A stretch of DNA of 64,000 nucleotides, from positions 1 through 64,000 of IMG/VR virus record IMGVR_UViG_3300048839_001082; one strand, written 5' to 3'. Below the pieces are notes generated by a model, which was given only the letters and a program-made list of their open reading frames with translations, had not been told where the DNA came from and ran no database searches. The DNA is from a virus. The position numbers were made by a program, and so were the translations under genes. Below, piece by piece: positions 1 through 53,324 of this stretch (the stretch's first letter is position 1; every line of letters begins with the position of its first letter).

Positions 1-263
1 CCTTCATTATCATTAGGGGCTGTATCTTTAACTGCTCCTTTAATTGATTCCACATTTACTATCAATGCTCCTTCATTATCATTAGGGGCTGTATCTTTAA
101 CTGCTCCTTTAATTGATTCCACATTTACTATCAATGCTCCTTCATTATCATTAGGGGCTGTATCTTTAACTGCTCCTTTAATTGATTCCACATTTACTAT
201 CAATGCTCCTTCATTATCATTAGGGGCTGTATCTTTAACTGCTCCTTTAATTGATTCCACATT
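1..263 (+). repeat. 69-bp perfect tandem repeat, about 3.8 copies visible, encoding PSLSLGAVSLTAPLIDSTFTINA
   Basis: Units start at 1, 70, 139 and 208 with identical sequence; in frame with the CDS. Confidence 0.95.
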
Positions 264-843
264 CCAAATATTTACAAGTACGTTGACTATGCAAGGAGTG
301 ATTGTTGTATCTTTCTTAACAACAACATCGGTAATTTATCCTCCAGTTTTTATTAGCGATCAGCTGATAACGACGAGTTTCTTGGAAAGTACTTTTAGTG
401 TAATTAGCCCTAAGCTCAATCTGAATGTTGTCACACCCACACTGGGTAGTAACTTTATTGCATTTACACCTGCACTAAATACGACAAATTCAATCACAAG
501 CGCTTTCATTGACTCCGTTTTCCAAGTTTTTAATGCGGGCGTAGTGCCGGGCGCAGTTGCTATAGCAGCACCTGTATTGCCGAGTTCGAATGCTTTCTAT
601 GTACCCAATCTTTCATTAGAAGCAAGTTCATTATCAGCGGCTTATATCGGAATTTCAGGTGCTATTTATGCACCGTCATTGAGTGGAGGCGCTGCTGCAA
701 TTCTCACCACATTAGATATCGAACGTATAGTTGATGCTTTGCTGTTAAGGTTAAATTTGGATATTATCCCGGTGAATGTCAAGAAAATGAACGATGCTTT
801 TGTTCAAGGCGATGGTACAATCAACAATAAATGGAGGGGTTGA
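1..843 (+). CDS. 5'-truncated repeat-containing putative virion protein upstream of the portal
   Basis: Frame 1 is open from base 1 and continues into the 283..843 ORF; Ser/Thr/Ala/Pro-rich with 23-aa repeats; true start lies outside the window. Confidence 0.7.
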   Translation, partial: PSLSLGAVSLTAPLIDSTFTINAPSLSLGAVSLTAPLIDSTFTINAPSLSLGAVSLTAPLIDSTFTINAPSLSLGAVSLTAPLIDSTFQIFTSTLTMQGVIVVSFLTTTSVIYPPVFISDQLITTSFLESTFSVISPKLNLNVVTPTLGSNFIAFTPALNTTNSITSAFIDSVFQVFNAGVVPGAVAIAAPVLPSSNAFYVPNLSLEASSLSAAYIGISGAIYAPSLSGGAAAILTTLDIERIVDALLLRLNLDIIPVNVKKMNDAFVQGDGTINNKWRG

Positions 844-1015: not shown

Positions 1016-2662
1016 ATGGCTGTCGTGAACGCCTCCCGTGGAGCGAAGACAGTCGCTGATCCGAACGCTAAATATGAATCATTAATGCGAGATTGGCTGG
1101 TATCTCGCGCAATGTGTAGTGGTGAACAATTTGTTAAAGCTTATGATAGTGTCATCGACAATGTGAGTTTTAACAATTTGTTAATTCCATTTTCACCGTC
1201 GATGAGCTCTTTGCAGTATAATTTTTATCGTGCTGAAGCGGAATTGCCTGGAATAACGGCTGAATTTTCAAAAATGATCGTTAGTGGTTTATTGAGAAAG
1301 CCACCAACGATCACGCTTCCACCATCAGTACCTAAAGAAGCTGCTGATTGGATTAAATATACCTTTAATCAAGATAACACTTCTATTGAATCTTTTTTAG
1401 GAACCGGGCTGTGGGAAGAAATTCAAACCAGCAGAGCATGGGTATATGTTGACTACCCTCATGTTATAAATCCTGAAGACTTGACACCAGATGAAAAGAA
1501 AGAATTAAAACCTTATCCAGTCCTTTGGCCCACAGAAACAGTAATAAATTGGAAAATGGGGTTTGACGATTTAGGTAAGCAAGTTCTTAAACAAGTAATT
1601 GTTAGAGGATTTACCGAAGAGTATGGCGATAACGAATTTCACCCTTCAAATATTGAAACTATTAAGGTGCATGAACTCGATGAAAAAGGTGAATATCGAA
1701 TTCGTGTATTTAAAGCTAAAGCAGATGTCGGTGATTTAAAGTTCGTGAATGGGCAGCAGGTGAAAGATATGAAAACCAAGCCTGCTTTTGAGCATGTTGA
1801 AACATTAGATAAAATTTTAGTTAACAGTGAGCGCTTGAAATTTATTCCGGCTTGGCCTCTTAATGGGCAAGTAGAGCCATCTCCGCCCATGCTCAATGCG
1901 GTGATTAACAAAGAAATTGCACTTTATAATAAAATCAGTCGACGTAACCACTTGTTATATGGTGCCGCGACTTATACGCCGGTGATCATTGCGGATATGT
2001 CTGATGAGGATTTTGAAGAAATTGTCAATAGTGGTTTAGGCACTTGGATTAAACTACCCGCTGGCAGTTCAGCTGAAATTCTTCAAACACCGACTGAAGC
2101 GTTAGCAGATATGGACAGAGCAATTATGTCCAGTATTGAAGAGATGGCAAAGCTCGGCATTCGAATGTTGACACCTGAAGCTGATCAATCCGGTATTGCT
2201 TTAGAGATTCGGAATGCTGCTCAAACTGCCAGACTTGGCACATTAAGTTCAAAAGTCTCTAGCGTGATGCAGCAAATAATTGCCTTCATGTTAGAATGGC
2301 GTTATGGCATTGTTGTGAAAGCTTCTGAAGTTGTGTTTAAATTATCTGAAGACTTTAATGCTACACCGTTCGGAGCTGATTGGATGCGATTGGCCACTGA
2401 GTGGTATCAACAAGGTCTTATTCCCAGATCTATTTGGGTACAAATGCTTAAGCAAAACGATATGTTGCCTTCCGATTATGATGATAAGGAAGGTCAGAAA
2501 GAGATTGACGAAGAGCAACTGATTGACAGACAAGCAGAAAATGATGATTTTGCTGATAGAGCAAAGTTAGAGTACAAATTGCTTGAAGAAGCTCCTGAAG
2601 TTGCTTTTGAAAAACGTAAGGAAGTGCCTGTTTCGAATAAAAAGAAACAAGCTGATTCGTAA
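1016..2662 (+). CDS. portal protein (DUF4055-like)
   Basis: 548 aa, first gene of the head module; YVDYP and E-V-INW motifs typical of this portal class; acidic C-terminus. Confidence 0.8.
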   Translation: MAVVNASRGAKTVADPNAKYESLMRDWLVSRAMCSGEQFVKAYDSVIDNVSFNNLLIPFSPSMSSLQYNFYRAEAELPGITAEFSKMIVSGLLRKPPTITLPPSVPKEAADWIKYTFNQDNTSIESFLGTGLWEEIQTSRAWVYVDYPHVINPEDLTPDEKKELKPYPVLWPTETVINWKMGFDDLGKQVLKQVIVRGFTEEYGDNEFHPSNIETIKVHELDEKGEYRIRVFKAKADVGDLKFVNGQQVKDMKTKPAFEHVETLDKILVNSERLKFIPAWPLNGQVEPSPPMLNAVINKEIALYNKISRRNHLLYGAATYTPVIIADMSDEDFEEIVNSGLGTWIKLPAGSSAEILQTPTEALADMDRAIMSSIEEMAKLGIRMLTPEADQSGIALEIRNAAQTARLGTLSSKVSSVMQQIIAFMLEWRYGIVVKASEVVFKLSEDFNATPFGADWMRLATEWYQQGLIPRSIWVQMLKQNDMLPSDYDDKEGQKEIDEEQLIDRQAENDDFADRAKLEYKLLEEAPEVAFEKRKEVPVSNKKKQADS

Positions 2663-2680: not shown

Positions 2681-3181
2681 ATGGCTGAAACCACAAGTCA
2701 AACATACAACACCGATATCGATGGCTTAGTCCGTCGTATCGATCGCATTATCACTGAAGTCATTAAGAGCCAATCGTCGGGTGTTAGCCAAACGATTAGC
2801 TTCGATGTCGTTCGTGCTAAGGCTTATGTTGAGAGTTTGCGTAGCTATATCGACTATGTTACTTCACAACCCTTGATGGATCTCCCGGAGACTGGTCCGC
2901 GTGCCATCTCAATGTTGCCTAAGGTTGTGATCCCGCGTCTCGAGAACGAGTCATCGTATGATATGGCTACGATGTTCGATCTGATGCGTGATGAGATGGC
3001 AGGTTCTAATTCAAGTCGCCTTCCTTCAGGCCTCATCAGCCATGATGAAGTTCGTGCTCGTTCGTATTTGGTACGTATTGATAATTTCATCAATGGTTAT
3101 ATTACCGTGATTGATCCTCTGGATCTTCCGGAATCTTCACCGATGACTCCTGTTTCAGGTCCCGGTAAGCAAGGCGTTTAA
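2681..3181 (+). CDS. hypothetical, probably virion protein with an internal two-fold repeat
   Basis: AAGGA RBS; duplicated S-S...D-VRA...DLPE-P motif; followed by a terminator. Confidence 0.7.
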   Translation: MAETTSQTYNTDIDGLVRRIDRIITEVIKSQSSGVSQTISFDVVRAKAYVESLRSYIDYVTSQPLMDLPETGPRAISMLPKVVIPRLENESSYDMATMFDLMRDEMAGSNSSRLPSGLISHDEVRARSYLVRIDNFINGYITVIDPLDLPESSPMTPVSGPGKQGV

Positions 3182-3185
3182 ACCC

Positions 3186-3207
3186 AAAGGCCCTTCGGGG
3201 CCTTTTT
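3186..3207 (+). terminator. intrinsic terminator
   Basis: AAAGGCCC-TTCG-GGGCCTTT followed by T run. Confidence 0.8.
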
Positions 3208-3210
3208 ATT

Positions 3211-6200
3211 ATGACTAATGTTAACACAAAAATCTACGACAAGGCGATAGATCGTGCCGCAATGGTGAGACTGTATGAGCGTAGAGTGAATAGCAAAGTC
3301 GCTAAAGATCTCGATGATCATATTGTTCGTTTAGATAGTCTGATTAGAAAGACAGATAAGCTTAATAACCCTGCCTTAATGGATGGAATTGACCTTGAAC
3401 TTTTAAACACTTATAAAAATACCTTAAACACAACTAAAAGATCTCTTTTAGATTTATTCACTGATCAAGTATCATATGCCTACCAAAATATTGAAGTGGC
3501 CATGGGTCATATTTGGGAAACTGAAAGACCTCATACACGATTAGCTGAAGATGTTGTTTTAAAGAGATCTCTAGTGGGTGACAAGACATTGGCCGGAAGT
3601 TGGGCGGGTGTTAGTTATAATGAAAGACTTCGATTACAAGCTATAATTCGTAAAGGTATTGCAGAAGGTGAAACCGTCGATAAGATTGCCCTTGCCATTA
3701 GAAAAGGCAATCTACATCGAATCACACGTTCACAATCTAGAGCATTAGTCGTGACTTCAATAACTAGTGTGGCTTCTCAAGCAGACCAGGCTGTTTACTT
3801 AGCGAATGAAAAGGCAATTCGTGGTTATCAATACGTGGCTGTGTTGGATAGTAGAACCACGTTACTTTGTTCTCATCGTGACGGTAAAATCTTTCCTGTT
3901 GAAGACACTGTTCACTTGCCTCCGGCGCATATAAACTGCAGATCAACCACTGTTCCTGTAATGGCATCTTGGGAAGATCTCGCTAAATTGGAAGGCGTGG
4001 CTCAAGTTAGACGTAAGAATATTGAAAAATTGAGTAAGCGACAAATTGCATATTATGATGGCCTTACACCGCTTAAAGAAAGTTATAATGACTGGCTGCT
4101 TAGGCAGCCTAAAGAGGTACAATTACGTCATTTGGGTGATTATAAGCGTGTTGAGCTTTTTAATACTGGTGAGCTCACCGTGGATAAGTTTTCCAATGCT
4201 GAGGGTAACTCCGTAGGTATTCGCGAATTAAGAGCAATTACTGAAGCAGGTTATACAATACCTGGTGACACTAAACGATTTGCGGCTGCTAAAGCACAAT
4301 TAGATTCAATGCAATTAGGTGCTTCAAAACCTGAAGATTTCTTTATTGATAAAAAGTTAGTGAAAACACTTGAAGATTATTATGTGCTTCAATCTAAAGA
4401 GCTCGGTGGTACTTTATCATTAACTAATTATCGTGGCGCTTTGATTCATACCAAAAAGAGCATGAAATCTCGTGTGCTCACTTCTCCACCTAGAGAGGAT
4501 CAACTCAAATTTAACCCGATTACTGGAAGATATGAAGATGTTCGATTGTATCAACCCAATCCTGGCGTATTAGCTAATAATCTTAAACTTGTTGAAGAAA
4601 GCGATGTTCTTCTAGCGAAAGACAAAGAATTCTTATTGCAATTTTCAGACTCTCTAAAAGATCGTATGAGTGTGAATGAGCGAGCTGTGGTAGTTGACAA
4701 TTTAAGAATTTTGTTTACTCGTTATCGGAATAATAAAGAAATTTGGGGTAATTTCAAAGCTGTATCTCAGGCTCAGATTAAGTTTGATGTGATGAACGTA
4801 TCTGACGCAATAGAAACACAGATTAGGAAAGATTCAGATATTCTTAAGAAATTGCTTCAAGATAATTATATTGATCCGGTTTTAGGTCCCACTCAACTTG
4901 AGGAGTTACAAGCCACCTTTCTCAGTAACATTCGAGAAAGAAATCTTTGGGAAGATAGAGTTGCACCAGGAATTGCAAAGAAACTTCGTTCAACCTTTGA
5001 TCTTACTATTGCTAAGAAAGTGCCCACTGTCTGGGGCAGACTTTCTGATAGAGAACTGCAGCAATTTTATCTCAAGTTTGCCCATAGACTCAGCCTCGCA
5101 GACTCTCCAGACAGAGATCAATTCGCAGTTCAACTAGGTAGAGATCTTTATAATTTAGCTAATTATAATGGTGATCGTAGAAAGTGGTATGAACTTGGAA
5201 TGGCGATTTTAGAAACCAAGAAGGTTCATCGTTTCTTCGAGATTGAAACATTCGGTGTTCAAAAGCGTCGGATGAAAAGTCGAATGAGCGGCAATTATTT
5301 TGGACCCTATTACGATACTGTTGCTTACAATATCAGAGTGACCGACCCAAAAATACAAAGATATTCTCAATTAACTCGTAAGATCGATGTTGGCCTCAGA
5401 GTGGCTGTGATTGATCCTAAGAATCGTCTTGTGGTTAGAGAAGGTTATAAGACATACTTTATTGATCGTGGTTTACTTGGTTATGAAGATACTCGAATCC
5501 CTATTACTTCAACACACAGTTTTAGTGATTTCCCGGAAGAAATGGTGGATAAGAGTCTAGTCGATGCACTAAATTGGGCCGGTAAAACTGAGTATAAAAT
5601 CGATGAGGACTATCATGATTTTATCAGAAAGTTGTTATATTTTGAAGATGACAAAGGGAAGGCCAAATATTATAATGAGCTTAATGAGTATCGAAAGTTT
5701 ATTGCAGCTAGAGGCGATTCTTATGAACGATTCAAAGCAATGGAATGGCTTCGAAATTCAGGAAAGTCATTTAGCAACCATCCTTTCATCGATCACAGAG
5801 CCCGTATATATGATCGTGGAATGATCTCTCCACAATCCGGTGAAACCTTTCGACCTTTCTTAAATACCACTGAACCTAAGATTTTAGGAATTGATGGATA
5901 TGAAAATCTACAAGACCAAATAGGATCCTTTTTGGGTGGTTTGAACGATCGACTTGAAGGCAGGTTTAATTCGCTGACAGTGACAGGTAGACAAAAAATA
6001 GCTCAAAAGTGGAAAGCTGATTTAGTGAAAATCGGCAATCACATGTTAAGAGGGAAGCCTGGAGATATACGTGCAATACTCGAGTCGGAAATTACGAAAG
6101 ATATAGATGGTGAAGATATCGGAAAATTTTACAGATTCGCTATTGAGCAAGCCAAGCTCGATAATTATTTGGGCGGTGACTATTCTATCCGTAATCTTAA

Positions 6201-7887
6201 TAAGCTTAACAATTATCGCACTTCTCTTGCCTTAGAGCAAGATGCTTCTTCTTCAGGCGCTCAAATAATCGCAATTACAACACGTAATAAACAATTGGCG
6301 GAACTAAGCAATGTCATCCCAACAACTCAAAAGAAACGATTGTACGACGAAATTGCTGCTGCCACTTTCAATGATCCCCGGTTTAAAAATCTCAATAAGA
6401 AATTGGGACTATCGGAGAAGGATCTTCGAAAAGCGGCGAAAGCTCAAAATATGGTTACATTCTACGGAGCAGGCGAACGCACCGGAATCTTAAATGTTGA
6501 AGGGAAGTTGAGCAAAGTCCTTGGAAAAGATACAAATACTTTAGTAGTCAAGGCAGCGGATCGAGATACAGTACTCAACGAAATTTCAGCTCAAATTGCA
6601 AGATATGAGAAGTTTGATCTTGATACTGCAGAAGAGCTTCGATTACTAAGGAATAACGTTAAAGATATCTTTAACAAAGGACTTGATCCTGGTGATGATA
6701 TTCTTGAACAACTCTATTTCTTGCAACCACAAACACGTGAACTTGTTGAGAGAATGTCAACGAATTATGAACGAGTGGTAACCCCTGATGATTTTAAACA
6801 AGTCGCGAAAATCATGAGTGAGCATCTCGCGGAACAAGTGCCCATTCTCAAAGAATTCACTAAGTTTTATGGTAGATTGGCTGAAGACTTTTTAAAGAAT
6901 TCAAAACCATCTAAGAGCGATTTCGATTGGGAAAGTATTGCTAAAACAAGCATTCGAGGCTCTAAGTCTAAAGGTTATGTTTTGCCTGATGTGGTAAGTC
7001 GTATTTTAGGTATAAAAGCTAGAGAGCCTGTATCTGAAAAAGTTTTGAGACGTTTTGGTTTTTGGAAACCTGACGGAACATTAAGTGAAATTCTCTATGG
7101 GGTCCCTTCTCCCGAAGATCGTAGAACAGGCGCCAAATTTATGAAACTTGAGATACTAACACCTACACTTCCGACTCCAGAAAATCTATTGAAAGGTAAA
7201 TTTTTATCTGAGCAAAAAATATCAGGTGTTGAGGTCTTCTATGCTAATAAATTGCCTAAAAGCTGGACAAACGTTCCTTCTGCTAATTTTGATGGAAAAA
7301 TTATAGAACAAAATTTCACTCAAACTTTTGAAGAGCGTTTATTCTATAAAAATCCTGACGGTACTTGGACAACGAACATTCTACAAGTTCTTCAAAAGAC
7401 TTCTTCTAATTGGTGGGAAGAAGCAGCAAATAAAATAGGTAAGATAAATGATATTGCGGATGCTACTAAAGCTAGAACAGCTTTTGGTGTTAACGCTAAT
7501 CATTCCAATGATGCTGTATTGGTGAAGAAATTTCATTTGTGGGGTAAGCGTGAAGGTGTTCCAACTTCCACGATTCATGACGCTTTCTTCGCGAATGCAG
7601 CTGATATGCTTAAAGCTAGAAAGGCTTTACGTACAATCTATGCTGAAGCTTTAAAGAATAATGTTATCAAACTTACATTAGATGAGATGTTAGCTAGAGG
7701 ACTTCCCAGACATCTTTATGATCAATATCTAAAAGAAGCCATAGATTCTGGTCTGATCCCTGTAGAAGGTATTTCCAAGATCAATGGAAGAACAATGAAA
7801 AAGAATGATATTCTCAATGAAGATGATATTTTGAAACCCGTTCCTGACGGTTTTAAAACGGACTATAGCTGGTATGGAGTTGGCTGA
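3211..7887 (+). CDS. MuF/SPP1 gp7-like head morphogenesis domain fused to a T7-like single-subunit RNA polymerase (putative virion RNAP)
   Basis: N-terminal AVLDSRTT..C...DG...PPAHINCRST (MuF). C-terminal DHRARIY, motif A EQDASSSGAQ, motif B RKAAKAQNMVTFYG, NANHSNDA, motif C TIHDAF. Confidence 0.9.
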   Translation: MTNVNTKIYDKAIDRAAMVRLYERRVNSKVAKDLDDHIVRLDSLIRKTDKLNNPALMDGIDLELLNTYKNTLNTTKRSLLDLFTDQVSYAYQNIEVAMGHIWETERPHTRLAEDVVLKRSLVGDKTLAGSWAGVSYNERLRLQAIIRKGIAEGETVDKIALAIRKGNLHRITRSQSRALVVTSITSVASQADQAVYLANEKAIRGYQYVAVLDSRTTLLCSHRDGKIFPVEDTVHLPPAHINCRSTTVPVMASWEDLAKLEGVAQVRRKNIEKLSKRQIAYYDGLTPLKESYNDWLLRQPKEVQLRHLGDYKRVELFNTGELTVDKFSNAEGNSVGIRELRAITEAGYTIPGDTKRFAAAKAQLDSMQLGASKPEDFFIDKKLVKTLEDYYVLQSKELGGTLSLTNYRGALIHTKKSMKSRVLTSPPREDQLKFNPITGRYEDVRLYQPNPGVLANNLKLVEESDVLLAKDKEFLLQFSDSLKDRMSVNERAVVVDNLRILFTRYRNNKEIWGNFKAVSQAQIKFDVMNVSDAIETQIRKDSDILKKLLQDNYIDPVLGPTQLEELQATFLSNIRERNLWEDRVAPGIAKKLRSTFDLTIAKKVPTVWGRLSDRELQQFYLKFAHRLSLADSPDRDQFAVQLGRDLYNLANYNGDRRKWYELGMAILETKKVHRFFEIETFGVQKRRMKSRMSGNYFGPYYDTVAYNIRVTDPKIQRYSQLTRKIDVGLRVAVIDPKNRLVVREGYKTYFIDRGLLGYEDTRIPITSTHSFSDFPEEMVDKSLVDALNWAGKTEYKIDEDYHDFIRKLLYFEDDKGKAKYYNELNEYRKFIAARGDSYERFKAMEWLRNSGKSFSNHPFIDHRARIYDRGMISPQSGETFRPFLNTTEPKILGIDGYENLQDQIGSFLGGLNDRLEGRFNSLTVTGRQKIAQKWKADLVKIGNHMLRGKPGDIRAILESEITKDIDGEDIGKFYRFAIEQAKLDNYLGGDYSIRNLNKLNNYRTSLALEQDASSSGAQIIAITTRNKQLAELSNVIPTTQKKRLYDEIAAATFNDPRFKNLNKKLGLSEKDLRKAAKAQNMVTFYGAGERTGILNVEGKLSKVLGKDTNTLVVKAADRDTVLNEISAQIARYEKFDLDTAEELRLLRNNVKDIFNKGLDPGDDILEQLYFLQPQTRELVERMSTNYERVVTPDDFKQVAKIMSEHLAEQVPILKEFTKFYGRLAEDFLKNSKPSKSDFDWESIAKTSIRGSKSKGYVLPDVVSRILGIKAREPVSEKVLRRFGFWKPDGTLSEILYGVPSPEDRRTGAKFMKLEILTPTLPTPENLLKGKFLSEQKISGVEVFYANKLPKSWTNVPSANFDGKIIEQNFTQTFEERLFYKNPDGTWTTNILQVLQKTSSNWWEEAANKIGKINDIADATKARTAFGVNANHSNDAVLVKKFHLWGKREGVPTSTIHDAFFANAADMLKARKALRTIYAEALKNNVIKLTLDEMLARGLPRHLYDQYLKEAIDSGLIPVEGISKINGRTMKKNDILNEDDILKPVPDGFKTDYSWYGVG

Positions 7888-7889
7888 AT

Positions 7890-7909
7890 AAAGCTGTTAT
7901 ATTAACCCA
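7890..7909 (+). promoter_or_regulatory. candidate phage RNAP promoter, class CTGTT-N4-WAACCC, upstream of scaffold/capsid genes
   Basis: AAAGCTGTTATATTAACCCA matches 32550..32569 at 19 of 20 positions. Confidence 0.6.
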
Positions 7910-7986
7910 GATGACCTATTTCAAAAGTCATTTGAAATTTTAACAAGGGTTGTACCCTTAAATGAGTAGTACTCAAAGGATTGAAA

Positions 7987-8652
7987 ATGCCTGATCAGAA
8001 TAAAGACGACACGTCTGAGATTGAAAACAAGGAAGAGCATAAAGAAGACAAACAGGAAACGGTTGTACCGCCTGACGTCGAAGAAATTGTTCAAAAGAAG
8101 ATTGCGGAAGCTCTCAAACCCATTAAATCTAATTTAGATAAAGCATATCAAGCAAGAGATGCTGCTTTAGACAAAATTAAGGAGTTTGAGAAAAAACAAA
8201 GAGAAGAAGAGCTCTTGAAACTTCAAGAAGCTGGAAAGCATAAAGAAGCTTTTGAATTACAACTTGCCGAAGAAAAAAGACTAAGAGAAGCCGCCGAAGC
8301 AAAAGCTGTCGAGTTGACACGAGACATGACGCTTAAAGGCGAATTGGGCGCTCTAAAATTTAGAAACAACAATGCTATGGAAATGGCATTCAGAGAGATC
8401 GTCCCACAATTGGTTAAAGATGCAAACGGTAATTGGGTGCATCGCTCCGGTATTAGTATTCAAGACTTCGTGCAAGGCTTCGCTGATAATCAAGACAATA
8501 CTTTCTTGTTTACTCAACGTGTCTCTACAGGATCAGGTTCAGGACCCGTAGCTCCTTCACCCGGTAGCAAAGGTGACAAGTCACTTTTTGAACTATCGCA
8601 GGAAGAAGTTTTAAAATTAGCTAGAGAAGGAAAACTTCCGAGGCGTAGATAA
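7987..8652 (+). CDS. capsid scaffolding protein
   Basis: Charged coiled-coil protein with Gly/Ser/Pro tail directly upstream of the major capsid gene; TTG at 7981 is an alternative start. Confidence 0.75.
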   Translation: MPDQNKDDTSEIENKEEHKEDKQETVVPPDVEEIVQKKIAEALKPIKSNLDKAYQARDAALDKIKEFEKKQREEELLKLQEAGKHKEAFELQLAEEKRLREAAEAKAVELTRDMTLKGELGALKFRNNNAMEMAFREIVPQLVKDANGNWVHRSGISIQDFVQGFADNQDNTFLFTQRVSTGSGSGPVAPSPGSKGDKSLFELSQEEVLKLAREGKLPRRR

Positions 8653-8663
8653 CTAGGAACATA

Positions 8664-9905
8664 ATGGGCGTTAAGACTAACCTTGCCGGTGCTACTAATA
8701 CTAGCAACCCCGGCGAACATAACTTTGTTTTACAAGAGGCCATTACTGGATATAGTGATGAAGCTTATACGACAGCTAAAAAGTTGTCTGGTACGGGCAT
8801 TGTCGGTTCTAATCCGAATATTGATACTTCGACGGAAACGTTCATTGGTCAAGTTCGTTGGTTCAAGCCGATGGATCATGTCGTGAACGTTGCTTCTCTG
8901 ACTGATTCGTCAGAAGGCGATTATGCGACGTATAGCTCCGACTATCTGCGTTACGTCAAGACTGTTCGTACGCACGGTGGCAAGAAGATCAATCTGCAAC
9001 AAGTCGTGACTCAACAAGACGGTCTGGCGAAGATCGGGCGTGATTTCGCTGAGACACGCGCCCAAGATGAGCATAATGCCATTTTGGCAGTTCTGCGCGG
9101 CGTGGCTTTGGCTGAACTTTTGAATGGCTGTGCAGCGGCATCTGGTGCTACAGGTCTTGGTGGCCAAACTTTCACCAATGATCCTGAAGACAAGAAGTAT
9201 GGCTTTTATGTCGATCTTGGTGCTGAGAAGTTGATTTCATTACCTGGAACGACACCCGCCGGTGTGGCAAACGCCGCTTACGTCGGCGCTCAACGCGCAG
9301 AAGGTTTCCTGAAGGCTTTCGGTATGGCTTATAAAGACTATGAGCCGGAATGGGCATATTTAGTTGTTTCACCTGAAGTCAAGGCTTCGTTACGTTCAGC
9401 GAATTTGGTTGATAGTGACGGTGTCGTTGAAGCCAATGTCAAGTTTGATACGATTTTCGGCGGCAAATTCAGACTTATCCAGACGCGCGCTTCACAAGGC
9501 TTCTCCGGTGCTGAAATTGATAAGATTCAGACTGGTGCGGGCACTGCTGAACTGACTGACGGCTCGAAGACGTCTTTCATTGTGTTGCCGGGTGCGCTTG
9601 CGATGCAGCAACTCGCTATTCCCGAGCCGACTGAAATTGAACGTAAAGCTGGAGCCTTTAAAGGCGGTGGCACCACGGCCATTTGGCATCGTTGGGGTTA
9701 TGTGCTTGCGCCTGTTGGCTATGATTGGATTGGCAGTGATGCTGCTTTTCCGAGCAATGCAAACTATTACGATGTTGTCGAAGGTGGCACTCAAAAGGCT
9801 CTTGCTTCTGTCGGTTCCGGCACACTTGCGGCCACTACGGGTGTTTGGTCACGTAAGACCAAGTCAGCACTCAGCCTGGGCATTCTTCCGGTCTTTCACG
9901 CTTAA
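8664..9905 (+). CDS. major capsid protein
   Basis: 413 aa; lies between scaffold and head-tail adaptor; high-expression codon usage; GGG...W.RWGY C-terminal pattern. Confidence 0.8.
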   Translation: MGVKTNLAGATNTSNPGEHNFVLQEAITGYSDEAYTTAKKLSGTGIVGSNPNIDTSTETFIGQVRWFKPMDHVVNVASLTDSSEGDYATYSSDYLRYVKTVRTHGGKKINLQQVVTQQDGLAKIGRDFAETRAQDEHNAILAVLRGVALAELLNGCAAASGATGLGGQTFTNDPEDKKYGFYVDLGAEKLISLPGTTPAGVANAAYVGAQRAEGFLKAFGMAYKDYEPEWAYLVVSPEVKASLRSANLVDSDGVVEANVKFDTIFGGKFRLIQTRASQGFSGAEIDKIQTGAGTAELTDGSKTSFIVLPGALAMQQLAIPEPTEIERKAGAFKGGGTTAIWHRWGYVLAPVGYDWIGSDAAFPSNANYYDVVEGGTQKALASVGSGTLAATTGVWSRKTKSALSLGILPVFHA

Positions 9906-13013: not shown

Positions 13014-13055
13014 CCCGCTAGAGTAGATTTTATCTGCTTTAGCGGGTTTATTTTT
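13014..13055 (+). terminator. hairpin/terminator before the tape measure gene
   Basis: CCCGCTAGAGTAGAT-TTT-ATCTGCTTTAGCGGG followed by TTATTTTT. Confidence 0.5.
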
Positions 13056-13068
13056 GAATTGGAGTGAT

Positions 13069-16000
13069 ATGTCTGGCATTCGAATAGACGTAGATGCAAA
13101 GACTTCACAATCGGAGAAGGATCTTAAAAGGATTAATGAGTCTTTACGAAATATTGAAAAGACCACAAATAGTGCATCTAGAGCCCTTTCAAATACATTT
13201 AAGGGAATAAGCACCACAATAATCTCCGGCGGAGCTTTTTTAGCGCTGAAGAATATATCTTCAGAATTCACAAATTTAAGTAATAAAATTGCGCTTGTTA
13301 CAGGCAGAACTGAGAGTTTAATAGTCTCTCAAAGAAAACTCTATCAGATTGCAGAAGACACTCGTTCTTCACTCACTGGTACAGTGGACGTATTTTCAAG
13401 TTTTGGGAGATCTCTAAAGAGTACCGGGATCTCTACTGAAAATATTTTAAAAACTACTAAGACAGTACAACAAGCAATTGCATTATCAGGTTCAAATGCA
13501 GTTGCAGCTTCAAATGCGATTATTCAATTGGGGCAAGGTCTTTCCGCGGGTGCTTTGCGCGGTGAAGAATTGAACTCAGTTATGGAGCAAGCGCCACGTC
13601 TTGCTCAAGCTATCGCTGATGAATTAGGCGTTACAACAGGTAAAATGCGTTTGTTGGCTGCGGAAGGCAAACTGGCCACTGATGTTGTTTTCACCGCATT
13701 GTTGAAACAAGCTGCGCAAATTAATAAAGAATTTAAGGTACTTGCGCCTACGATGGAGCAGTCTACGAGTTTCTTAGTAAGCTCGATGAAGTTTTACGTA
13801 AATGAATTGGATAAAGGTTTAAACCTTTCCGCTTTCCTGTCCGCTAAAATGTTTGAAGTGGGAAAGGGTATAAAGGCAGCTTCTAACAATGCTCTTGAGT
13901 TAGGTGCTAATCTTGCAGCAAGTTACCACACTGTCTTAAAGAATATCAGAGCTATCGGCGGTCCTTTATTAGTGTCTTTGTCAGAGCTTGGTAAACAATT
14001 CGCGAATGTCATTCCGAAGTTGCATTTAACAAAGACTTTGAAAGGTGATATTAATGAAGCAATTCGCATATTTGATGATAAACTATTAGGTGGATTCATT
14101 AATAGCTTTAAGAAATTTAAATTTGTAAATGTATTCAGTATTCGAAGTGATGTTGAAAAGGCAATTACAGAGCTTAAACGACTGAGTCCGAAGTATTGGG
14201 CGGCGAGCGGCTGGGATATCCCTACATTTAAGAAATTCTTTAGTAAGGAGAACTTAAGCAAATACCAAGTCGCCTTTGGAAACCTTGCGAAAGCGATTAC
14301 CGGGAATACTAATTCAATAAGTTCAACAATTACCAATTTAGCAAAGACCGCAGACTATGGTTTTAAAGCGCTTTCAAGATACTTTGGATTTAGACCCGAT
14401 ACTCTAATTGCATTTACTGGTGGACAAATAGATACATTCTTAATGACGTTGTCTGAAGTGACCAGAGGCTTTTCAGGAATAACTGTAAAGATTTGGGAAT
14501 TTAATCGTCTAGTTATCGATAACTTTTTACCAGGTGTACATGCACTTGGTTTAGCTTTAGCAGATGTTTTTAAAGAATTACCAAATATTATTTGGAAAGC
14601 ATTAAAGAGTGTTACAATTGGATTTGTTTCTTTTATTAGAAACTTTACTCAAGTCTTGAAGGAATTGGTATTCACTGATTTTGAAGTTAATTTTAAGCAA
14701 ATCTTTGAAAGTGCTTTAGATGCTTTTAATAATTTTGTTGATGATCTTTCCGATAAAGATATATTTGAAAACATTTACAAAAATATAAAGAGCTTTGGAA
14801 TACGAGTTATAAATGTCTTTAAAGATATTTATGACAAAGTTATTGGAAACTCTTGGTGGACAGATACTATTGAAGCCATAATCGATACTAGTCATTCTTT
14901 ATGGGATAAAGCAAGTTCAGGGCTTAACGATTTCGGACGAAATACTATTAATCTATTTAAAGATATTTTTAATCAAAATAGACGATTGAAGTTTAGCATT
15001 CCTTCATTTAAACTGACATTTGATAAATTTCCCAGAATAGAGATAAATAGTATAACAGACGCTTTTGAAAGTGCTTCAATTAGGGTAAAACAATTCTTTA
15101 GTGATCTTTTTGATAGTTTTCCTTCTATTGCTAAAATGGCGTTTGTTGCCGCTGCGGGTGTTCTTGTATTTGCATTATTTCCACCTGGCATCATAAAGAC
15201 TGCGCTTTTAGCCGCTATTGTCACTAGTCTTGCCACAAGTGCGACAGTGATTGGAGAAGCATTTGGTGCATCATTGACTGGTGGCAGCTTTGTTTATGAT
15301 ATGGGTTATAAGCTAGGTAAAGTGGCTGGTTTGTTTGTGGCTACTGTTATAAGAGAATTTCCTAAGGTTGTAAATGTTTTTGGTGGAGCCATTTCAGCTT
15401 TCTTTCGAGGGATTATAGAAGAACTCCCTATATTGAACACCGCTATTAAAGGTGTTTTTAGTGTTTTTGACACGGTTGGTTTAGCAGGACCTCTGGGAAT
15501 ATTTGGAACTATCTTCTTTGGTAAGAAGCTTGGATTCTTCGATGCTTTGAAAAAAGTCTCTGTAGTCGGCCCTGCCTTAAAGTTCTTTGGACTGATTGAA
15601 ACGAAGAAAGGTAAGAAAGACAAGAGCGGCGATAAAGATGGCTCAATATGGACATCTTTATTTGGAACATTCGGTGCTGTACGAACAGTTTCTGCACTTA
15701 CTTTAATAACGAGCCAATTAGGCGGTTTTGATTCCATTTTCGCTGAATCTAAATGGATGAAGGCTGCATTAGATGTTGGTTTGTTATACTTGTCTTTGTT
15801 CGGTGATAAAGGTCTTGATAACTTGCAAGCAATCCTCTTCAAAACAGTCATTAAGCCCGTTAGAGAAATGTTTAGAACATTAAAAGGTGACTCTTTTATT
15901 GCAAATGGTATTTTTGATGTAATTTTCGGAGATAAAGGCGGCTGGATCGAACGTGCCAGCAGTTTTATGAAAGGTGTTTTTACCGCTATTGGTGAAAATG

Positions 16001-34429: not shown

Positions 34430-34454
34430 GCGGAAAAAGGGGTATCTTATATGA
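34430..34454 (+). promoter_or_regulatory. candidate early promoter GCG-N9-GTATCTTATATGA (copy 1)
   Basis: 13-nt core repeated exactly at 38214..38226; both copies are intergenic and precede gene blocks. Confidence 0.55.
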
Positions 34455-35280: not shown

Positions 35281-35317
35281 GCCGGATCAGTAACCGGCAT
35301 TAATTTTTTTTTTTCGA
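35281..35317 (+). terminator. hairpin plus A-T11-CGA terminator-like signal (copy 1)
   Basis: GCCGG-ATCAGTAA-CCGGC then T11CGA; the same T11CGA occurs at 39351..39365. Confidence 0.6.
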
Positions 35318-36573: not shown

Positions 36574-36807
36574 ATGGATTCAAGAGAGACTGCCCATTTT
36601 GTGGAAGGTGCGATGATGGAGTACTATCGTCGCAACGAATGGAATCCTGAAGACTATACTCGGTATACTCAGGAAACGATCAATAAGGTCTGGAGGTATC
36701 TGACTCAACCGAGTCAAACCATTGATGCGTCTTACACGGATATTCAAGCGCACATCGCGCTCGAAGCAGGTAAGATTCATTTTCCGCAAAGTCTCAAGCG
36801 CCGCTAG
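36574..36807 (+). CDS. hypothetical protein
   Basis: AAGGAG RBS; stop codon lies within the 5' end of tRNA-Arg. Confidence 0.65.
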   Translation: MDSRETAHFVEGAMMEYYRRNEWNPEDYTRYTQETINKVWRYLTQPSQTIDASYTDIQAHIALEAGKIHFPQSLKRR

Positions 36808-36873
36808 CTCAGGGGATAGAGCAACGGCCTTCTAAGCCGTAGGCCGCTGGTTCGAATCCAGCGCGGTGCGCCA
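36798..36873 (+). tRNA. tRNA-Arg (TCT)
   Basis: GCGCCGC/GCGGTGC acceptor stem, ACGGC-CTTCTAA-GCCGT anticodon arm, GGTTCGAATCC, encoded CCA. Confidence 0.95.
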
Positions 36874-37986: not shown

Positions 37987-38063
37987 GGGCCGTTAGCTCA
38001 GTCGGTAAGAGCAGCGGACTCATAATCCGTTGGTCGTTGGTTCAAGTCCAACACGGCCTACCA
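37987..38063 (+). tRNA. tRNA with CAT anticodon, most likely tRNA-Ile2 (lysidine) rather than Met
   Basis: Cloverleaf with GCGGA-CTCATAA-TCCGT arm and CCA; lacks initiator features; resembles enterobacterial ileX-type tRNA as recalled. Confidence 0.9.
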
Positions 38064-38201: not shown

Positions 38202-38226
38202 GCGCGTAAATCAGTATCTTATATGA
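38202..38226 (+). promoter_or_regulatory. candidate early promoter GCG-N9-GTATCTTATATGA (copy 2)
   Basis: Exact core repeat of 34442..34454. Confidence 0.55.
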
Positions 38227-39311: not shown

Positions 39312-39365
39312 CTACCAAGCACCTTAAAAAGGTGCTTGGTAGAGTTCCCTATTTTTTTTTTTCGA
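39312..39365 (+). terminator. 14-bp hairpin plus A-T11-CGA (copy 2)
   Basis: CTACCAAGCACCTT-AAA-AAGGTGCTTGGTAG then T11CGA. Confidence 0.65.
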
Positions 39366-39594: not shown

Positions 39595-42351
39595 TTGAAA
39601 TCGAGAGTAGTGGCTTCATTGACTCGGAGAATTACCACTGAAGCTGTTCTGCAAGCTCAGTTACGATTCTTAAAAGAGCATGATGTGAACTCTTATGTAA
39701 ATACTGTAATTTCTACATTATACTTGTACACAAGACCTAAAAAGGGTTACGAAACAACTTCTGTTTACATGGCTGAATTGATTTCTGCCTTGGGTCATGG
39801 TGTGCGAACAAAACTTAAGCTCAAAAGAGACTCCAATGCCGCTGCTAAACTAGGTGCATTTTTATTATATACATTCGAAGAACTTGGTTATATAAAAGTG
39901 ATATTGGGTGTGGGAACGAGACACGCCACTTATATCGTGACTGTAACCAATGACAATGCAATAGTATCGATGTGGAGTGCGATGGAAGCTTCTCATATTG
40001 AGAAATTACCGTCCGGAACTCCATATGCTCCTTGGACCAGCACAAAACATAATGCTGGAATTCGAATGGTGAAGACTAATGATAAAGGAGTACTTGATAA
40101 AATCGCTCCTGAAACTCATCCAATTTTATTCAATGTACTTAACAAAGCTCAAGCCGTCGGTTGGAGAATTCATAAAGAGATTTACGACCTTCATGCATGG
40201 GCGCTAAGGAATAAAACGGATGCATTTGCCGATATTTGGGAACAACAAAATCCCGAAGCGAAGGCTACGAAAATAAGAGAAGTTAAAGCCATCGGCGAAA
40301 TGGCAAAGAAGTTTCTTAACAGTCCAATATATCATCTCTATTATTATGATTTTCGTGGTAGGAAATACACGAATACAGCTTATTTACATGAACAGGGTAA
40401 TGATCTGGCCAGAGCTTTACTCCAAAGAATTGACGAGAAGAAAATAGGCAGAGCAGGTTATTGGTGGATGCTGGTATCAATTGCGTCAAATTGGGGTGGT
40501 GATTCTGGCAGACTTGATGGACTAAAAACTGATAAGATTCCCCTTCAAGAACGTTATTTATGGGCGTTAGATAATGAAGATATTTTATTGGCATATGCTG
40601 AAAAGCCTAAGGTACATCAAGGTTGGATGAAGGCTGACAAACCTTGGCAGTTTCTCGCAGGATGCATTGAGCTAAAAAGACTCAGAGAATGGCAGTATCA
40701 ATACGGCAGTGTTAAAAACCCATTTGAAGATTATAATTATGAATCTCACATGGAAGCCTACATTGATGGTAGCAATAATGGTTCTCAACATCTGGCTGCT
40801 TTGACGCTGGATGAAGTCACGGCGCCTCACGTAAATTTGGTTCCGTTAGAACTTCCAGGAGATCTCTATTCTTATGTGGCCGGACATGTATGGGACCATC
40901 TGCATGAGCTCTTGAAAGATTATCCAGAAGAAGAACGTGAAGACTGTGAAATCTTTATCGATAACTTGATAGAATTGAAGAAGAAGATAACTGCGGCCGA
41001 GCCTAAAAGCGATGTGAGAAGAGAATTAATAGCTTCGATTCAAACTTTTAAAGAGGCTAATCAATATATTCTAGATAAATCTGCCGCGGTGTATTGGTAC
41101 AGGATCGAAGATAATAAGCACAAAAGAAAGATCGTGAAGAGAAACGCGATGACAATTCCGTTGTAAAGGCGGAAGTAAAAGAGGGTGAATTCAGTGGACA
41201 TCCATTCGCTGTGGACAATACTGAGCCGAGCCGTTTAAACGGAAGGTGCAACGACTATCATGTAGGGCAGAAGTCTGCTCGAAGCCCCCTCCACTCCTTG
41301 AGTGATGATATAGTCTGGTCTGCATAGTAATATGCAGCTGTATTAAGCAATTGGTATGAATATGAATTGGAACGAAATCTTTATCTACAACGCAGATGGC
41401 AGTTTAACGAGGCGTTATTCAAATAATCAGCATAATACTGTTGGCTGGATAAATAGTTCAGGTTACAGAGGTGTTGTTAGAACTAAAAATAATAAATTTC
41501 AAGCACGTTTAACGCTAGAAGGTAAAAAGCTTTACTTAGGCTTGTTCGATACGCCCAAGGAAGCTTTTGATTGTGTTGAAACTACACGTAAAGAGTTGTA
41601 CGGCGAATTTGCAACTCTTAGATAAATTGCTTAATACGGGTGAAGATTAACGAACTTCATTGAACACAACGATGGTGGAACAAGTTATGGAATGGGGCAG
41701 CAGATAATTGATGATTCTAGAAAACACGGTATTGACCAGTTACTCTATTTAGAACATAAATGGGGTGCCTTCTTGGGTAGAGCCGTCTTTAATGATTGTC
41801 GATTATCTTTAAAACGCCCTATGAAGCTGTTATCAATTTTTGAAGAAGCCGGAAAGAAAGCCGAGAAACAAGGTAGATTTCTGTCTTGGACAGTGCCTAT
41901 AACAAATTTCCCAGTAGTTCAACACTACACAGAAGGTGTGGTGAAGAAGGTCTGGTGTCAATATGGTCCTCCTAGGGGTCCTCGACTCAGTACAAATTAC
42001 TTCGAAAACACTTACCAAATTTCTATTTCTTTCATCGAAGAACGTGTGCCTTCCCGAAATAAACAATCTCAAGGTGCGAGTCCCAATGCCATTCATAGCT
42101 TAGATGCAGCTCATTTGGCGTTGACCGTTGAAAGATGTGATTTCCCAGTAACTACCATTCATGATAGTTTCGGGTGTTTATTAGCTGACATGCCTGTTTT
42201 GTTCAGGACGGTTAGAGAGACTTTTGTTGAACTTTATAATGCCAATCCGTTAGAGCATTTAATGAAAGACTTAGGCTGCAATATCAATGATGTGGATAGA
42301 GGTACGCTAGATATTTCACTAATACTCGAATCTGAGTATGCATTTTCATAG
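39595..42351 (+). CDS. T7-like DNA-dependent RNA polymerase, intron-split: join(39595..41161,41672..42351), 748 aa
   Basis: DFRGRKY, motif A IDGSNNGSQH, motif B restored by splicing (RKIVKRNAMTIP-Y-GG), PNAIHSLDA, motif C TIHDSFG, C-terminal YAFS. Confidence 0.9.
41162..41671 (+). mobile_element. group I intron in the RNAP gene (510 nt)
   Basis: P1 TTCCGT/GCGGAA with U-G at the 5' splice site; P7 elements ACGACTA and GATATAGTCT; terminal G; splicing restores frame and motif B Tyr. Confidence 0.9.
41356..41625 (+). pseudogene. intron-encoded HNH-AP2 homing endonuclease remnant lacking the HNH domain
   Basis: SGYRGV...KFQAR....GKKLYLGLFDT..EA...LYGEFA AP2-type domain; no HNH motif; flanked by the TATTAAGCAATT/AATTGCTTAATA stem. 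Confidence 0.7.
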
Positions 42352-47846: not shown

Positions 47847-48490
47847 AATTAGAATGGCAAAATGCGCCCGTGAAAACGCAGTGGGGTGACTGTATGAGAG
47901 AATGTCTTGTTGAATTAGACAAAGATTCAACATTGCGACTTTTCGCGGATGTTGATGATTTGCACAAAGTGGAAAGTGCGCTCTTACGCGAACTGCTGGA
48001 CGAGCCGGTGCAGGAGTCAAGCCCACTCGCGGGCACGATGGCAGAGCAATTCCTGCAAGTCGTCGCCAGCATCTGGCACGATCACCCGGACTATTCGATC
48101 CGGCAGACGCTGGACGCGCTCAATGCGAAGTTTCCTGCAGAGCCGGTGCAGGACACGCCGCCGCAGCGTCCACCCACACCTGTAGGCTGGAGTGATACGG
48201 ACTGGCTGGCTCACCTATCGACCATGCCGCCGATTGCATACGCGCTACGCGACACCCTATACGGCACCAGCAAAGCCGGCGTGCTGCGTTTCTGCGCCGC
48301 CAACGAGCCGGGTGCGTTTGCTGTCTACACCCACCCACCGCAGCAGCGCAAGCCGCTGACGGATGACGAAGCACTCGCGCTTATCCGCGCCACGCCGCAA
48401 GAGGACGTTACTCAAGAAGGATGGATTCGCAGGCAGCGTCTTTCCTGGGTTCGCGCCATCGAGCGTGCCATCACAGGAGAGCCAACATGA
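47843..48490 (+). CDS. hypothetical chimeric protein (AT-rich N-terminus, GC-rich C-terminus ending AIERAITGEPT)
   Basis: ATGA overlap with the exonuclease; composition shift near 47990. Confidence 0.6.
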   Translation: MKLEWQNAPVKTQWGDCMRECLVELDKDSTLRLFADVDDLHKVESALLRELLDEPVQESSPLAGTMAEQFLQVVASIWHDHPDYSIRQTLDALNAKFPAEPVQDTPPQRPPTPVGWSDTDWLAHLSTMPPIAYALRDTLYGTSKAGVLRFCAANEPGAFAVYTHPPQQRKPLTDDEALALIRATPQEDVTQEGWIRRQRLSWVRAIERAITGEPT

Positions 48491-53316: not shown

Positions 53317-53324
53317 AAGGTATA

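What the first reader, a model, noticed from the sequence alone, without database searches (positions are those of the whole stretch)
3211..7887. MuF head-morphogenesis domain fused to a complete T7-type RNA polymerase: candidate virion-delivered RNAP
Seen: the first ~330 aa carry the MuF/SPP1 gp7 signature (LDSRTT..C...PPAHINCRST). The C-terminal part carries all single-subunit RNAP motifs (DHRARIY; A: QDASSSG ~6238; B: RKAAK...FYG ~6427-6467; HSNDA 7501; C: IHDAF ~7573). The gene sits between portal and scaffold. Established: MuF proteins are low-copy portal-associated head proteins and often carry C-terminal enzymatic or toxin cargo; N4-like phages inject a virion RNAP, but not through MuF. 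Inference: this phage uses MuF as a packaging and ejection tag to inject its own RNAP for host-independent early transcription, a strategy distinct from T7 and N4. I cannot tell without a search whether relatives have been described.
Basis: partly seen in the sequence, partly recalled or inferred. Interest (0 to 1): 0.92.

Follow-up and report, generated by a model that had tools for sequence, protein, structure and literature searches.

The report
Capsid protein fused to RNA polymerase
A long-tailed phage joins its only portal-associated minor head protein (MuF) to a complete T7-type RNA polymerase, so it probably carries its own transcription enzyme inside the capsid to switch on early genes that are marked by a conserved promoter-like signal.

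The parts
3211..7887 (+). MuF-RNAP fusion gene, 1558 aa
3211..4245 (+). MuF / SPP1 gp7-like head-morphogenesis module (res 1-345; Pfam core at nt 3640-3951)
   Evidence: Pfam 48.9 bits; phrog_241 E 1.3e-55; signature L212 D213 T216 C220 P237 P238 H240 C243 R244 S245 invariant in 23 of 23; sole MuF in the genome
4246..4272 (+). Low-confidence linker (res 346-354) between MuF and the next domain
   Evidence: the only segment with pLDDT under 50 in the N-terminal model
4273..4902 (+). Helical domain of unassigned family (res 355-~564)
   Evidence: confidently folded; no informative match
4903..7884 (+). Complete T7-like single-subunit RNA polymerase (res ~565-1558)
1016..2662 (+). Portal protein
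   Evidence: phrog_145 E 9.5e-61, DUF4055
2681..3181 (+). 166-aa ORF of unknown family between portal and fusion gene
   Evidence: no Pfam or PHROG match
3186..3205 (+). Terminator-like hairpin (8-bp stem, UUCG loop, T-run) 5 nt before the fusion gene's ATG
   Evidence: -13.6 kcal/mol, z -2.63
7894..7908 (+). One of four CTGTT-N4-WAACCC copies (candidate middle/late promoter), between the fusion gene's stop and the scaffold gene
7981..8652 (+). Scaffold protein
   Evidence: phrog_206 E 1.9e-5; conserved position
8664..9905 (+). Major capsid protein
   Evidence: phrog_247 E 4.4e-16
34430..34454 (+). Early promoter-like element, copy 1 (GCGGAAAA-N4-GTATCTTATATGA)
38202..38226 (+). Early promoter-like element, copy 2
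35281..35317 (+). Hairpin plus T11-CGA, end of early unit 1
39312..39365 (+). Hairpin (14-bp stem) plus T11-CGA, end of early unit 2, 230 nt before RNAP2
39595..42351 (+). Second, canonical T7-like RNAP (RNAP2), interrupted by a group I intron (Rfam match 41141-41337) that is followed by an HNH ORF (41356-41625)
   Evidence: PF00940 105.9 and 76 bits; RF00028 63.6 bits, E 1.3e-15; phrog_99

Best explanation
The gene encodes a capsid-delivered RNA polymerase. SHOWN: the N-terminal 345 residues are a full MuF/SPP1-gp7 minor head protein and the only one this phage has. Residues ~565-1558 are a complete T7-type polymerase with every catalytic residue kept. The gene lies in the late head module, after the portal and before the scaffold. 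INFERRED: during assembly the MuF part docks a few copies on the portal inside the procapsid, as shown for the MuF protein gp44 of phage 80alpha. At infection the protein leaves through the portal and long tail with the DNA. The polymerase part then starts transcription at a conserved 25-27-nt bipartite element (GCGGAAAA-N4-GTATCTTATATGA at 34430 and 38202) that heads the runs of small early genes just upstream of the second polymerase gene. RNAP2, a canonical T7-like enzyme that needs intron splicing, then takes over middle and late genes, possibly from the CTGTT-N4-WAACCC sites. Those late genes include the fusion gene itself, whose product is loaded into progeny capsids. This is an N4-like relay built from different parts.
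Against: No direct evidence that the protein is in virions, is ejected or makes RNA. Which enzyme reads the element is not shown; RNAP2 or the host RNAP remain possible. The distant-clade version holds a perfect TATAAT, which a host sigma-70 could use as a -10 box. In this window the motif alone is not significant (3 matches at up to 2 mismatches vs 2.25 expected; 42 of 100 shuffles reach that); its weight comes only from cross-genome conservation. A strong hairpin plus T11-CGA lies between the second element and RNAP2, which starts 230 nt further on, so the element may not drive RNAP2 directly here. The MuF module has no solved structural relative to compare. Two representatives (P0152, P0158) start with Met near residues 611-632 and could be stand-alone forms. 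One contig with the element (77% complete) showed no fusion gene. The host is unknown, so my host-promoter scans may use the wrong consensus.
Confidence: 0.7

Rival explanations
1. The fusion protein is made late and stays with the assembly machinery. The polymerase works at the portal or procapsid (for example in transcription-linked concatemer processing or packaging), or is cut off to serve as a late polymerase. The early element is read by host RNAP or by RNAP2.
For: The gene is in the late head module. A low-confidence linker at res 346-354 could be a cleavage site. The distant-clade element contains TATAAT. From recall, not from a call: T7 RNAP has roles in T7 DNA maturation.
Against: A second polymerase already exists for middle and late genes in all 7 genomes checked. 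The element is 25-27 nt long and nearly invariant across clades whose proteins share about 30% identity, unlike degenerate sigma-dependent promoters, and no -35 partner is apparent at 17-nt spacing (my reading of the sequences). MuF proteins tested so far are virion components, and one is ejected.
Confidence: 0.12
2. The protein is packaged and ejected, but its main job is not mRNA synthesis. It pulls the genome into the cell by transcribing it, or makes primers for replication.
For: From recall: transcription-driven genome entry is known for T7, and single-subunit RNAPs prime replication in T7 and in mitochondria. The genome is transcribed almost wholly on one strand.
Against: These roles do not exclude early transcription and need the same promoter-dependent start. 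The element sits in mid-genome at the head of gene runs, not at a contig end. The phage has its own primase-helicase.
Confidence: 0.1
3. The polymerase module is an inactive relic kept as a structural or DNA-binding cargo.
For: Weak Pfam score (42.7 bits, partial profile coverage). Single-sequence search barely reaches T7 RNAP (E 0.67).
Against: All catalytic residues are invariant in 23 of 23 members down to 22% identity. The full fold is kept through the C-terminal residue. In relatives the gene is interrupted next to catalytic motifs at 1078/1079, 1082/1083, 1084/1085 and 1429/1430, as expected for mobile elements that target conserved, essential sequence.
Confidence: 0.03
4. The fusion is an assembly or gene-calling artefact.
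For: None found.
Against: One uninterrupted frame. The same architecture appears in 59 of 80 independent viral contigs, 112 of 120 database homologues and isolate genomes.
Confidence: 0.01

Closest known systems
Coliphage N4 virion RNA polymerase gp50 and the N4 polymerase relay (Schitoviridae)
T7-group single-subunit RNA polymerases and their promoters (Autographiviridae)
   Same: Whole fold and catalytic residues. The candidate promoter is a contiguous, nearly invariant signal of 25-27 nt with an A/T-rich block near its 3' end, about the size of T7-type promoters (size recalled).
   Different: T7 RNAP is a stand-alone early protein made by host RNAP and is not packaged. This enzyme has a MuF module plus about 220 extra residues at the N-terminus and about 200 extra residues between motifs B and C (positions against T7 numbering). 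The clade is compact: only 167 representatives at E 0.001 or better in 1.84 billion proteins.
MuF (Phage_Mu_F, SPP1 gp7, 80alpha gp44) minor head proteins and their cargo fusions
   Same: Same Pfam family, same gene position next to the portal, and the same principle of MuF carrying a C-terminal enzyme. Fusions to ARTs, RelA/SpoT, RNases, 2H, Nudix, PRTase and kinases are described (passages of PMC5512222 and PMC9503650).
   Different: An RNA polymerase is not among the MuF cargoes in any passage I saw. This cargo is far larger (about 1,000 aa) and would act on the phage's own DNA, not on host targets.
Naomviridae (DSS3_VP1, DSS3_PM1), dU-DNA roseophages
   Same: Orthologous fusion gene (29% identity over 94%; BFVD best match TM 0.77 to a 1463-aa protein, the length of gp108). 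Same head-module order, a second RNAP (gp080), a similar replication module and a related early element.
   Different: The window's phage belongs to a separate clade (55-77% identity among its own members). It lacks the dCMP deaminase annotated in DSS3_VP1, and has no ThyA, ThyX or dUTPase, so its DNA chemistry cannot be inferred.

Membership tests
Phage_Mu_F / SPP1 gp7 minor head protein family (PF04233) | Profile match above the curated cut-off | tested here: met
   48.9 bits vs 29.6; 54 bits in the genome scan; 23 of 23 clade members
Phage_Mu_F / SPP1 gp7 minor head protein family (PF04233) | Conserved core signature (LDxRT..C ... PPxHxNCRS) | tested here: met
   Invariant in 23 of 23; aligns with the same block of 80alpha gp44
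Phage_Mu_F / SPP1 gp7 minor head protein family (PF04233) | Gene placed next to the portal gene and before scaffold and capsid genes | tested here: met
   same order in 80alpha and DSS3_VP1
Phage_Mu_F / SPP1 gp7 minor head protein family (PF04233) | Low-copy incorporation into the capsid through the portal, and ejection | not testable with these tools
   Known for 80alpha gp44 from passages read; needs virion proteomics here
T7-like single-subunit DNA-dependent RNA polymerase (PF00940) | Profile match above the curated cut-off | tested here: met
   42.7 bits vs 22, two stretches, partial coverage; 19 of 23 members; clade profile vs T7 RNAP E 1.7e-22
T7-like single-subunit DNA-dependent RNA polymerase (PF00940) | Catalytic residues: motif A Asp, motif C Asp, motif B Lys/Tyr/Gly, DxxGR arginines | tested here: met
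   D1011, D1457, K1077, Y1085, G1086 and R863/R865 align with T7 D537, D812, K631, Y639, G640 and R423/R425; invariant
T7-like single-subunit DNA-dependent RNA polymerase (PF00940) | Whole fold including the N-terminal domain and the C-terminal end | tested here: met
T7-like single-subunit DNA-dependent RNA polymerase (PF00940) | Promoter-specific RNA synthesis | not testable with these tools
   Only a candidate promoter is in hand
N4-type virion RNA polymerase (Schitoviridae gp50) | Giant (~3,500 aa) protein with a central polymerase flanked by injection and encapsidation domains, fused to metallopeptidase domains | tested here: not met
   1558 aa with MuF at the N-terminus and the polymerase running to the C-terminus; PMC5512222 passage
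N4-type virion RNA polymerase (Schitoviridae gp50) | Polymerase domain closest to N4 mini-vRNAP | tested here: not met
N4-type virion RNA polymerase (Schitoviridae gp50) | Carried in the virion and injected | not testable with these tools
   Inferred from the MuF fusion only

The most novel reading that the evidence does not exclude
A large, globally distributed lineage of long-tailed phages, including the cultured dU-DNA Naomviridae, runs its whole programme without host RNA polymerase. A T7-type polymerase tethered to the MuF portal protein travels down a non-contractile tail with the DNA. It reads a 25-27-nt promoter conserved across clades, and so switches on a second phage polymerase. This would be a third, independently evolved way of delivering a transcription enzyme, after N4 gp50 and the multisubunit or two-barrel virion RNAPs of jumbo and crAss-like phages. 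It may be what lets phages with non-canonical DNA start infection.
Probability: 0.5. Interest if true: 0.88.

Novelty: new variant of a known kind. Interest (0 to 1): 0.8.

Why it matters
Virion-delivered RNA polymerases are known from only a few phage groups, and none uses the common MuF head protein as the carrier or travels through a siphovirus tail. If the reading is right, MuF can deliver a cargo of about 1,000 residues that acts on the phage's own genome. That widens what 'MuF cargo' means. It would also give a compact, self-contained polymerase-promoter pair of biotechnological interest. And it would explain how an abundant marine phage lineage, which standard metagenomics misses because of dU-DNA (PMC12669031 passages), begins transcription. 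The hypothesis is directly testable: DSS3_VP1 is cultured, and it carries both the fusion (gp108, annotated only as 'head morphogenesis') and the candidate promoter.

Tried and rejected
Single-sequence search of P0001 against solved structures barely reached T7 RNAP (E 0.67); only the clade profile did.

Literature: ten searches found no paper describing a MuF-RNAP fusion. Passages only were read in PMC5512222, PMC8323127 (0 occurrences of 'RNA polymerase', 'RNAP', 'MuF', 'head morphogenesis'), PMC12669031, bioRxiv 10.1101/2025.10.29.685362, PMC9503650, PMC12889711, PMC7290940, PMC11619397 and PMC11806420. Figures and supplementary files were not visible. The domain-architecture figures of PMC5512222 and the supplements of PMC8323127 and PMC11619397 could hold relevant annotation or proteomics.

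Complex prediction of portal (alignment A4) with MuF residues 1-350 (A1) gave no verdict (score 0.00). It is neither for nor against binding.

De novo k-mer scans of intergenic DNA in this genome alone gave only the 69-nt tandem array and AT-rich noise.

The CTGTT-N4-WAACCC motif is real in this genome but not conserved in four relatives, so I could not test it comparatively.

Recent duplication of RNAP2 as the origin of the fused polymerase is rejected: the intact RNAP2 of G001 scores 69.8 bits against the clade profile, no better than T7 RNAP (82.3 bits).

A conserved attenuator before the fusion gene is not supported: of 71 relatives' upstream regions, 37 fold at -10 kcal/mol or better, but only 1 also has a T-run by my criteria.

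A link to dU-DNA could not be tested: no dCMP deaminase, ThyA, ThyX or dUTPase in this genome.

The PF00940-only homologues are not unfused forms: they start at scattered internal positions and several lack an initial Met.

The look-up of sequencing runs and read laying were not used; the many independent assemblies already exclude a chimera.
Full report
OBSERVATION. The window is the first 64 kb of a complete 81,522-bp phage record (CheckV 100%, terminal repeat of 127 nt). ORF 3211-7887 on the + strand is one uninterrupted frame of 1558 codons. Pfam finds Phage_Mu_F (res 144-247, 48.9 bits, cut-off 29.6) and RNA_pol PF00940 (42.7 bits, cut-off 22). PHROGs finds head morphogenesis (phrog_241, res 1-344, E 1.3e-55) and RNA polymerase (phrog_414, E 7.9e-22). 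The neighbours are the portal (1016-2662), an unassigned 166-aa ORF (2681-3181), scaffold (7981-8652), major capsid protein (8664-9905), head-tail adaptor, tail tube, a 3202-aa tape measure, distal tail protein and a 2303-aa fibre-like protein. This is a siphovirus-type structural module.

A profile of 23 full-length members hits T7 RNAP at E 1.7e-22 in three collinear stretches. It aligns D861/R863/R865 with T7 D421/R423/R425, D1011 with D537, K1077/Y1085/G1086 with K631/Y639/G640, H1431/D1434 with H784/D787 and D1457 with D812. These residues are invariant in all 23 members down to 22% identity, as is the MuF signature L212 D213 T216 C220 P237 P238 H240 C243 R244 S245.

The N-terminal 570 residues fold confidently (pLDDT 86.2). 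The only segment under 50 is 346-354, exactly between the MuF part and a further helical domain (355-~565). That domain and the MuF part have no informative structural match. Architecture: MuF (1-345), linker (346-354), unassigned helical domain (355-564), complete T7-like RNAP (565-1558).

NOT A CHIMERA, AND WIDESPREAD. A word-indexed search gave 461 homologues at E 0.001 or better. Of the 120 listed, 112 carry both Pfam domains and are about 1,360-1,700 aa. The 8 polymerase-only entries are truncated gene calls that start at scattered internal positions. An exhaustive phmmer run with residues 359-1558 found only 167 cluster representatives among 1.84 billion proteins, so the clade is compact and well separated from ordinary T7-like enzymes.

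In IMG/VR, 59 of the 80 best loci match through residue 1558. The polymerase segment follows MuF in 75 of 80 (the other five contigs end inside the gene). The portal lies upstream in 65 of 80 and the scaffold downstream in 53 of 80; most of the rest appear to be cut by contig ends, which I did not check one by one.

Among GenBank phage records, only four cover at least 80% of the protein: EBPR siphovirus 1 (60% identity, there split around an HNH gene) and DSS3_PM1 plus DSS3_VP1 (two records; 29% identity over 94%). In DSS3_VP1 the gene is gp108, annotated 'head morphogenesis'.

In several relatives the polymerase part is interrupted at residues 880/881, 987-991, 1044, 1078/1079, 1082/1083, 1084/1085 and 1429/1430. 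Four of these sites lie inside motif B or directly before the HSNDA motif. Some relatives keep one open frame of 1,639-1,879 aa across the interruption. This is the pattern expected of introns and inteins that home to conserved, essential sequence.

WHY PACKAGING IS LIKELY. The fusion is the only MuF homologue in this complete genome, so whatever MuF does in head assembly here is done by this protein. 80alpha gp44 occupies the same portal-to-scaffold position, is a Phage_Mu_F member (47.2 bits) and aligns with this clade's MuF core (hhalign 96.5%, E 8e-10). Passages of PMC7290940 and PMC12889711 state that gp44 is incorporated at about two copies per capsid, is ejected with the DNA and depends on the portal crown domain. 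ZC01_048, a MuF protein that my query matched directly, was identified in purified siphovirus virions (PMC11619397 passages). Passages of PMC5512222 and PMC9503650 describe MuF fused to many enzymatic cargoes that are thought to be injected. None of the passages I saw lists an RNA polymerase, and N4-like RNAPs are said there to be always fused to metallopeptidase domains.

A TWO-POLYMERASE GENOME. The genome holds a second, canonical T7-like RNAP at 39595-42351 (PF00940, 105.9 and 76 bits). It is interrupted by a group I intron (RF00028, 63.6 bits, E 1.3e-15) followed by an HNH ORF. Five of five long relatives and DSS3_VP1 (gp080, annotated 'RNA polymerase') also have both enzymes. The partial EBPR record shows only the fused one. 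The two are old paralogues: the intact RNAP2 of relative G001 scores 69.8 bits against the fusion-clade profile, while T7 RNAP itself scores 82.3.

A CONSERVED PROMOTER-LIKE ELEMENT. Within this genome the repeat at 34425 and 38197 is not significant by itself. Its core, GTATCTTATATGA, nevertheless recurs exactly on the + strand in related genomes whose fusion proteins are only 55-67% identical: three copies in G003, three in G005 and a one-to-two-base variant twice in G002. Aligned, the copies show a bipartite signal, GCGGAAAA-N4-GTATCTTATATGA. All 10 copies are on the coding strand, each 31-195 nt before an ATG-start ORF. Nine of the ten lie 0.8-5.8 kb upstream of RNAP2.

Read as tightly packed + strand ATG ORFs, the region 34.4-39.4 kb of the window forms two small-gene units. 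Each is headed by the element and closed by a hairpin plus T11-CGA.

A scan of 2.9 million viral contigs for GGAAAA-N4-GTATCTTATATGA found 77 stretches; my own rough estimate of chance, from an assumed collection size and not from a tool, is about one or fewer. Of 23 searchable long contigs among them, 22 encode a homologue of the fusion, and 17 of 17 that are at least 90% complete do (5 further handles were not held). In 43 of the 77 loci RNAP2 lies inside the fetched stretch, and in all 43 the element is upstream on the same strand, the nearest copy 814-4,292 nt away. Bases outside the search pattern are conserved too (G 96% and C 99% before GGAAAA; G 81% before GTATCTT; 89 copies).

The distant clade has a related version, AAAAAGTGAGAAAA-N5-G[CT]ATCTATAATGA. 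There are two copies 2.3-2.5 kb upstream of RNAP2 in G001. DSS3_VP1 has one at about 36,256, in the gap at the head of the small-ORF run that leads to gp080, with a core-only copy near 67,793. That version occurs in 86 stretches. In the 80 listed loci RNAP2 was in view in 42, and the element was upstream on the same strand in all 42.

A signal this long and this invariant, kept across clades with about 30% protein identity, is what promoters of single-subunit polymerases look like, and unlike degenerate sigma-dependent promoters. That leaves a pre-existing phage polymerase or the host enzyme. Host-type consensus promoters are not enriched (sigma-70 type: 7 found vs 7.7 expected in the early region; Bacteroidetes type, a recalled consensus: 2 vs 2.09).

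QUALIFICATIONS. Nothing here shows that the protein is in virions, is ejected or is active. The distant-clade version contains a perfect TATAAT, so a host sigma-70 reading cannot be excluded, although I see no -35 partner at 17-nt spacing. In this window RNAP2 starts 230 nt beyond a strong terminator-like hairpin, so read-through or an unseen promoter is needed. The host is unknown; the only hint is one homologue that UniRef assigns to a Flavobacterium sp.. The portal-MuF complex prediction gave no verdict (listed under Tried and rejected).

A second motif, CTGTT-N4-WAACCC, has four exact + strand copies between ORFs (7 matches at up to one mismatch vs 1.61 expected; 0 of 100 shuffles reach that). 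One copy lies directly between the fusion gene's stop and the scaffold gene. It is a candidate middle/late promoter, but it is not conserved in relatives.

COMPARISON AND NOVELTY. In function the closest system is the N4 relay. It is not a member of that family: size, domain layout and nearest structural relatives all differ (see Membership tests). It is a member of both the MuF family and the T7-like RNAP family. Ten literature searches and the passages read found no description of the fusion. The two Naomviridae papers do not mention an RNA polymerase in their main text; figures and supplements were not visible to me.

This scan has flagged the same fusion on at least nine other genomes and the same early promoter on at least five, with follow-up agents reaching similar readings. 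Those are not independent evidence. I reached the promoter result from my own calls before reading those notes. I rate it a new variant of a known kind (virion-delivered RNAP; MuF cargo), of high interest, and readily testable in DSS3_VP1.

Noticed in passing
window 1-332 and genome 81391-81522: A 69-nt tandem array (3.8 copies at the start, 1.9 at the end of the record). The 127-nt 'direct terminal repeat' lies inside this array, so it may be an assembly overlap within a tandem repeat rather than a physical terminal repeat. The unit contains GGGGCTGTATCTT, reminiscent of the early element's GTATCTT core.
   Followed up: partly
window 39595-42351, 50680-53316, 53313-56042; L092 2829-3380: The genome is rich in mobile insertions. 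There is a group I intron plus HNH ORF in RNAP2. The ribonucleotide reductase is in two pieces (53313-54365 and 55113-56042) around a LAGLIDADG endonuclease ORF (54434-55060). The primase-helicase has an extra segment (res 483-739) that hits 'terminase large subunit' PHROGs, which may be an intein. A further HNH endonuclease lies at genome 66829-67380.
   Followed up: partly
relatives L001, L018-L020, L023-L026, L047, L059; G013, G016, G018, G023, G024: The fused polymerase gene is interrupted in many relatives, often inside motif B or just before the HSNDA motif. Some interruptions keep one open frame of 1,639-1,879 aa (intein-like); others change frame or carry an HNH gene (intron-like, as in EBPR siphovirus 1).
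   Followed up: partly
window 3186-3205: The best terminator-like hairpin of the head module (8-bp stem, UUCG loop, then T-run) ends 5 nt before the fusion gene's ATG. It could hold expression of the fusion below that of the portal. It is not consistently conserved in relatives.
   Followed up: partly
loci L029-L042, L065-L072, L084 (distant clade), just upstream of the fusion gene's ATG: A small conserved hairpin, TACTC-AATG-GAGTA, followed by CTAG-ATG. It places a GGAG (a possible ribosome-binding site) in the 3' arm and might limit translation of the fusion gene.
   Followed up: no
window 7894, 32554, 43049, 62435: CTGTT-N4-WAACCC occurs four times exactly, all on the + strand and between ORFs (before scaffold/capsid, lysis, SSB and a 215-aa ORF); 0 of 100 shuffles reach the count at up to one mismatch. 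It is a candidate middle/late promoter, not conserved in four relatives.
   Followed up: partly
window 48000-50000: A G+C-rich island (0.58 against about 0.40) with repeated GAGCCGGTGCAG-like words and three ORF ends sharing CGCCATC..GGAGAGCC.ACATGA. Its two larger ORFs (47819-48490, 48786-49508) have no PHROG match.
   Followed up: no
window 36798-36873, 37987-38063, 63726-63815: Three tRNA genes (Arg-TCT, Met-CAT, Ser-TGA), two of them inside the putative early region.
   Followed up: no
window 13054-22662: A 3202-aa tape measure protein with a 92-nt segment repeated three times near its C-terminus (19753, 21280, 22318).
   Followed up: no
G003 62412; DSS3_VP1 record ~67,793; G001 43743: Extra copies of the early element's core lie far from RNAP2, each in a gap before a further ORF (in DSS3_VP1 right after a terminator-like hairpin). 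This suggests additional early units elsewhere in these genomes.
   Followed up: no
proteins P0152, P0158: Two distant-clade representatives of 785 and 812 aa begin with Met near query residues 611-632. They could be stand-alone versions of the fused polymerase or internal-start gene calls.
   Followed up: partly
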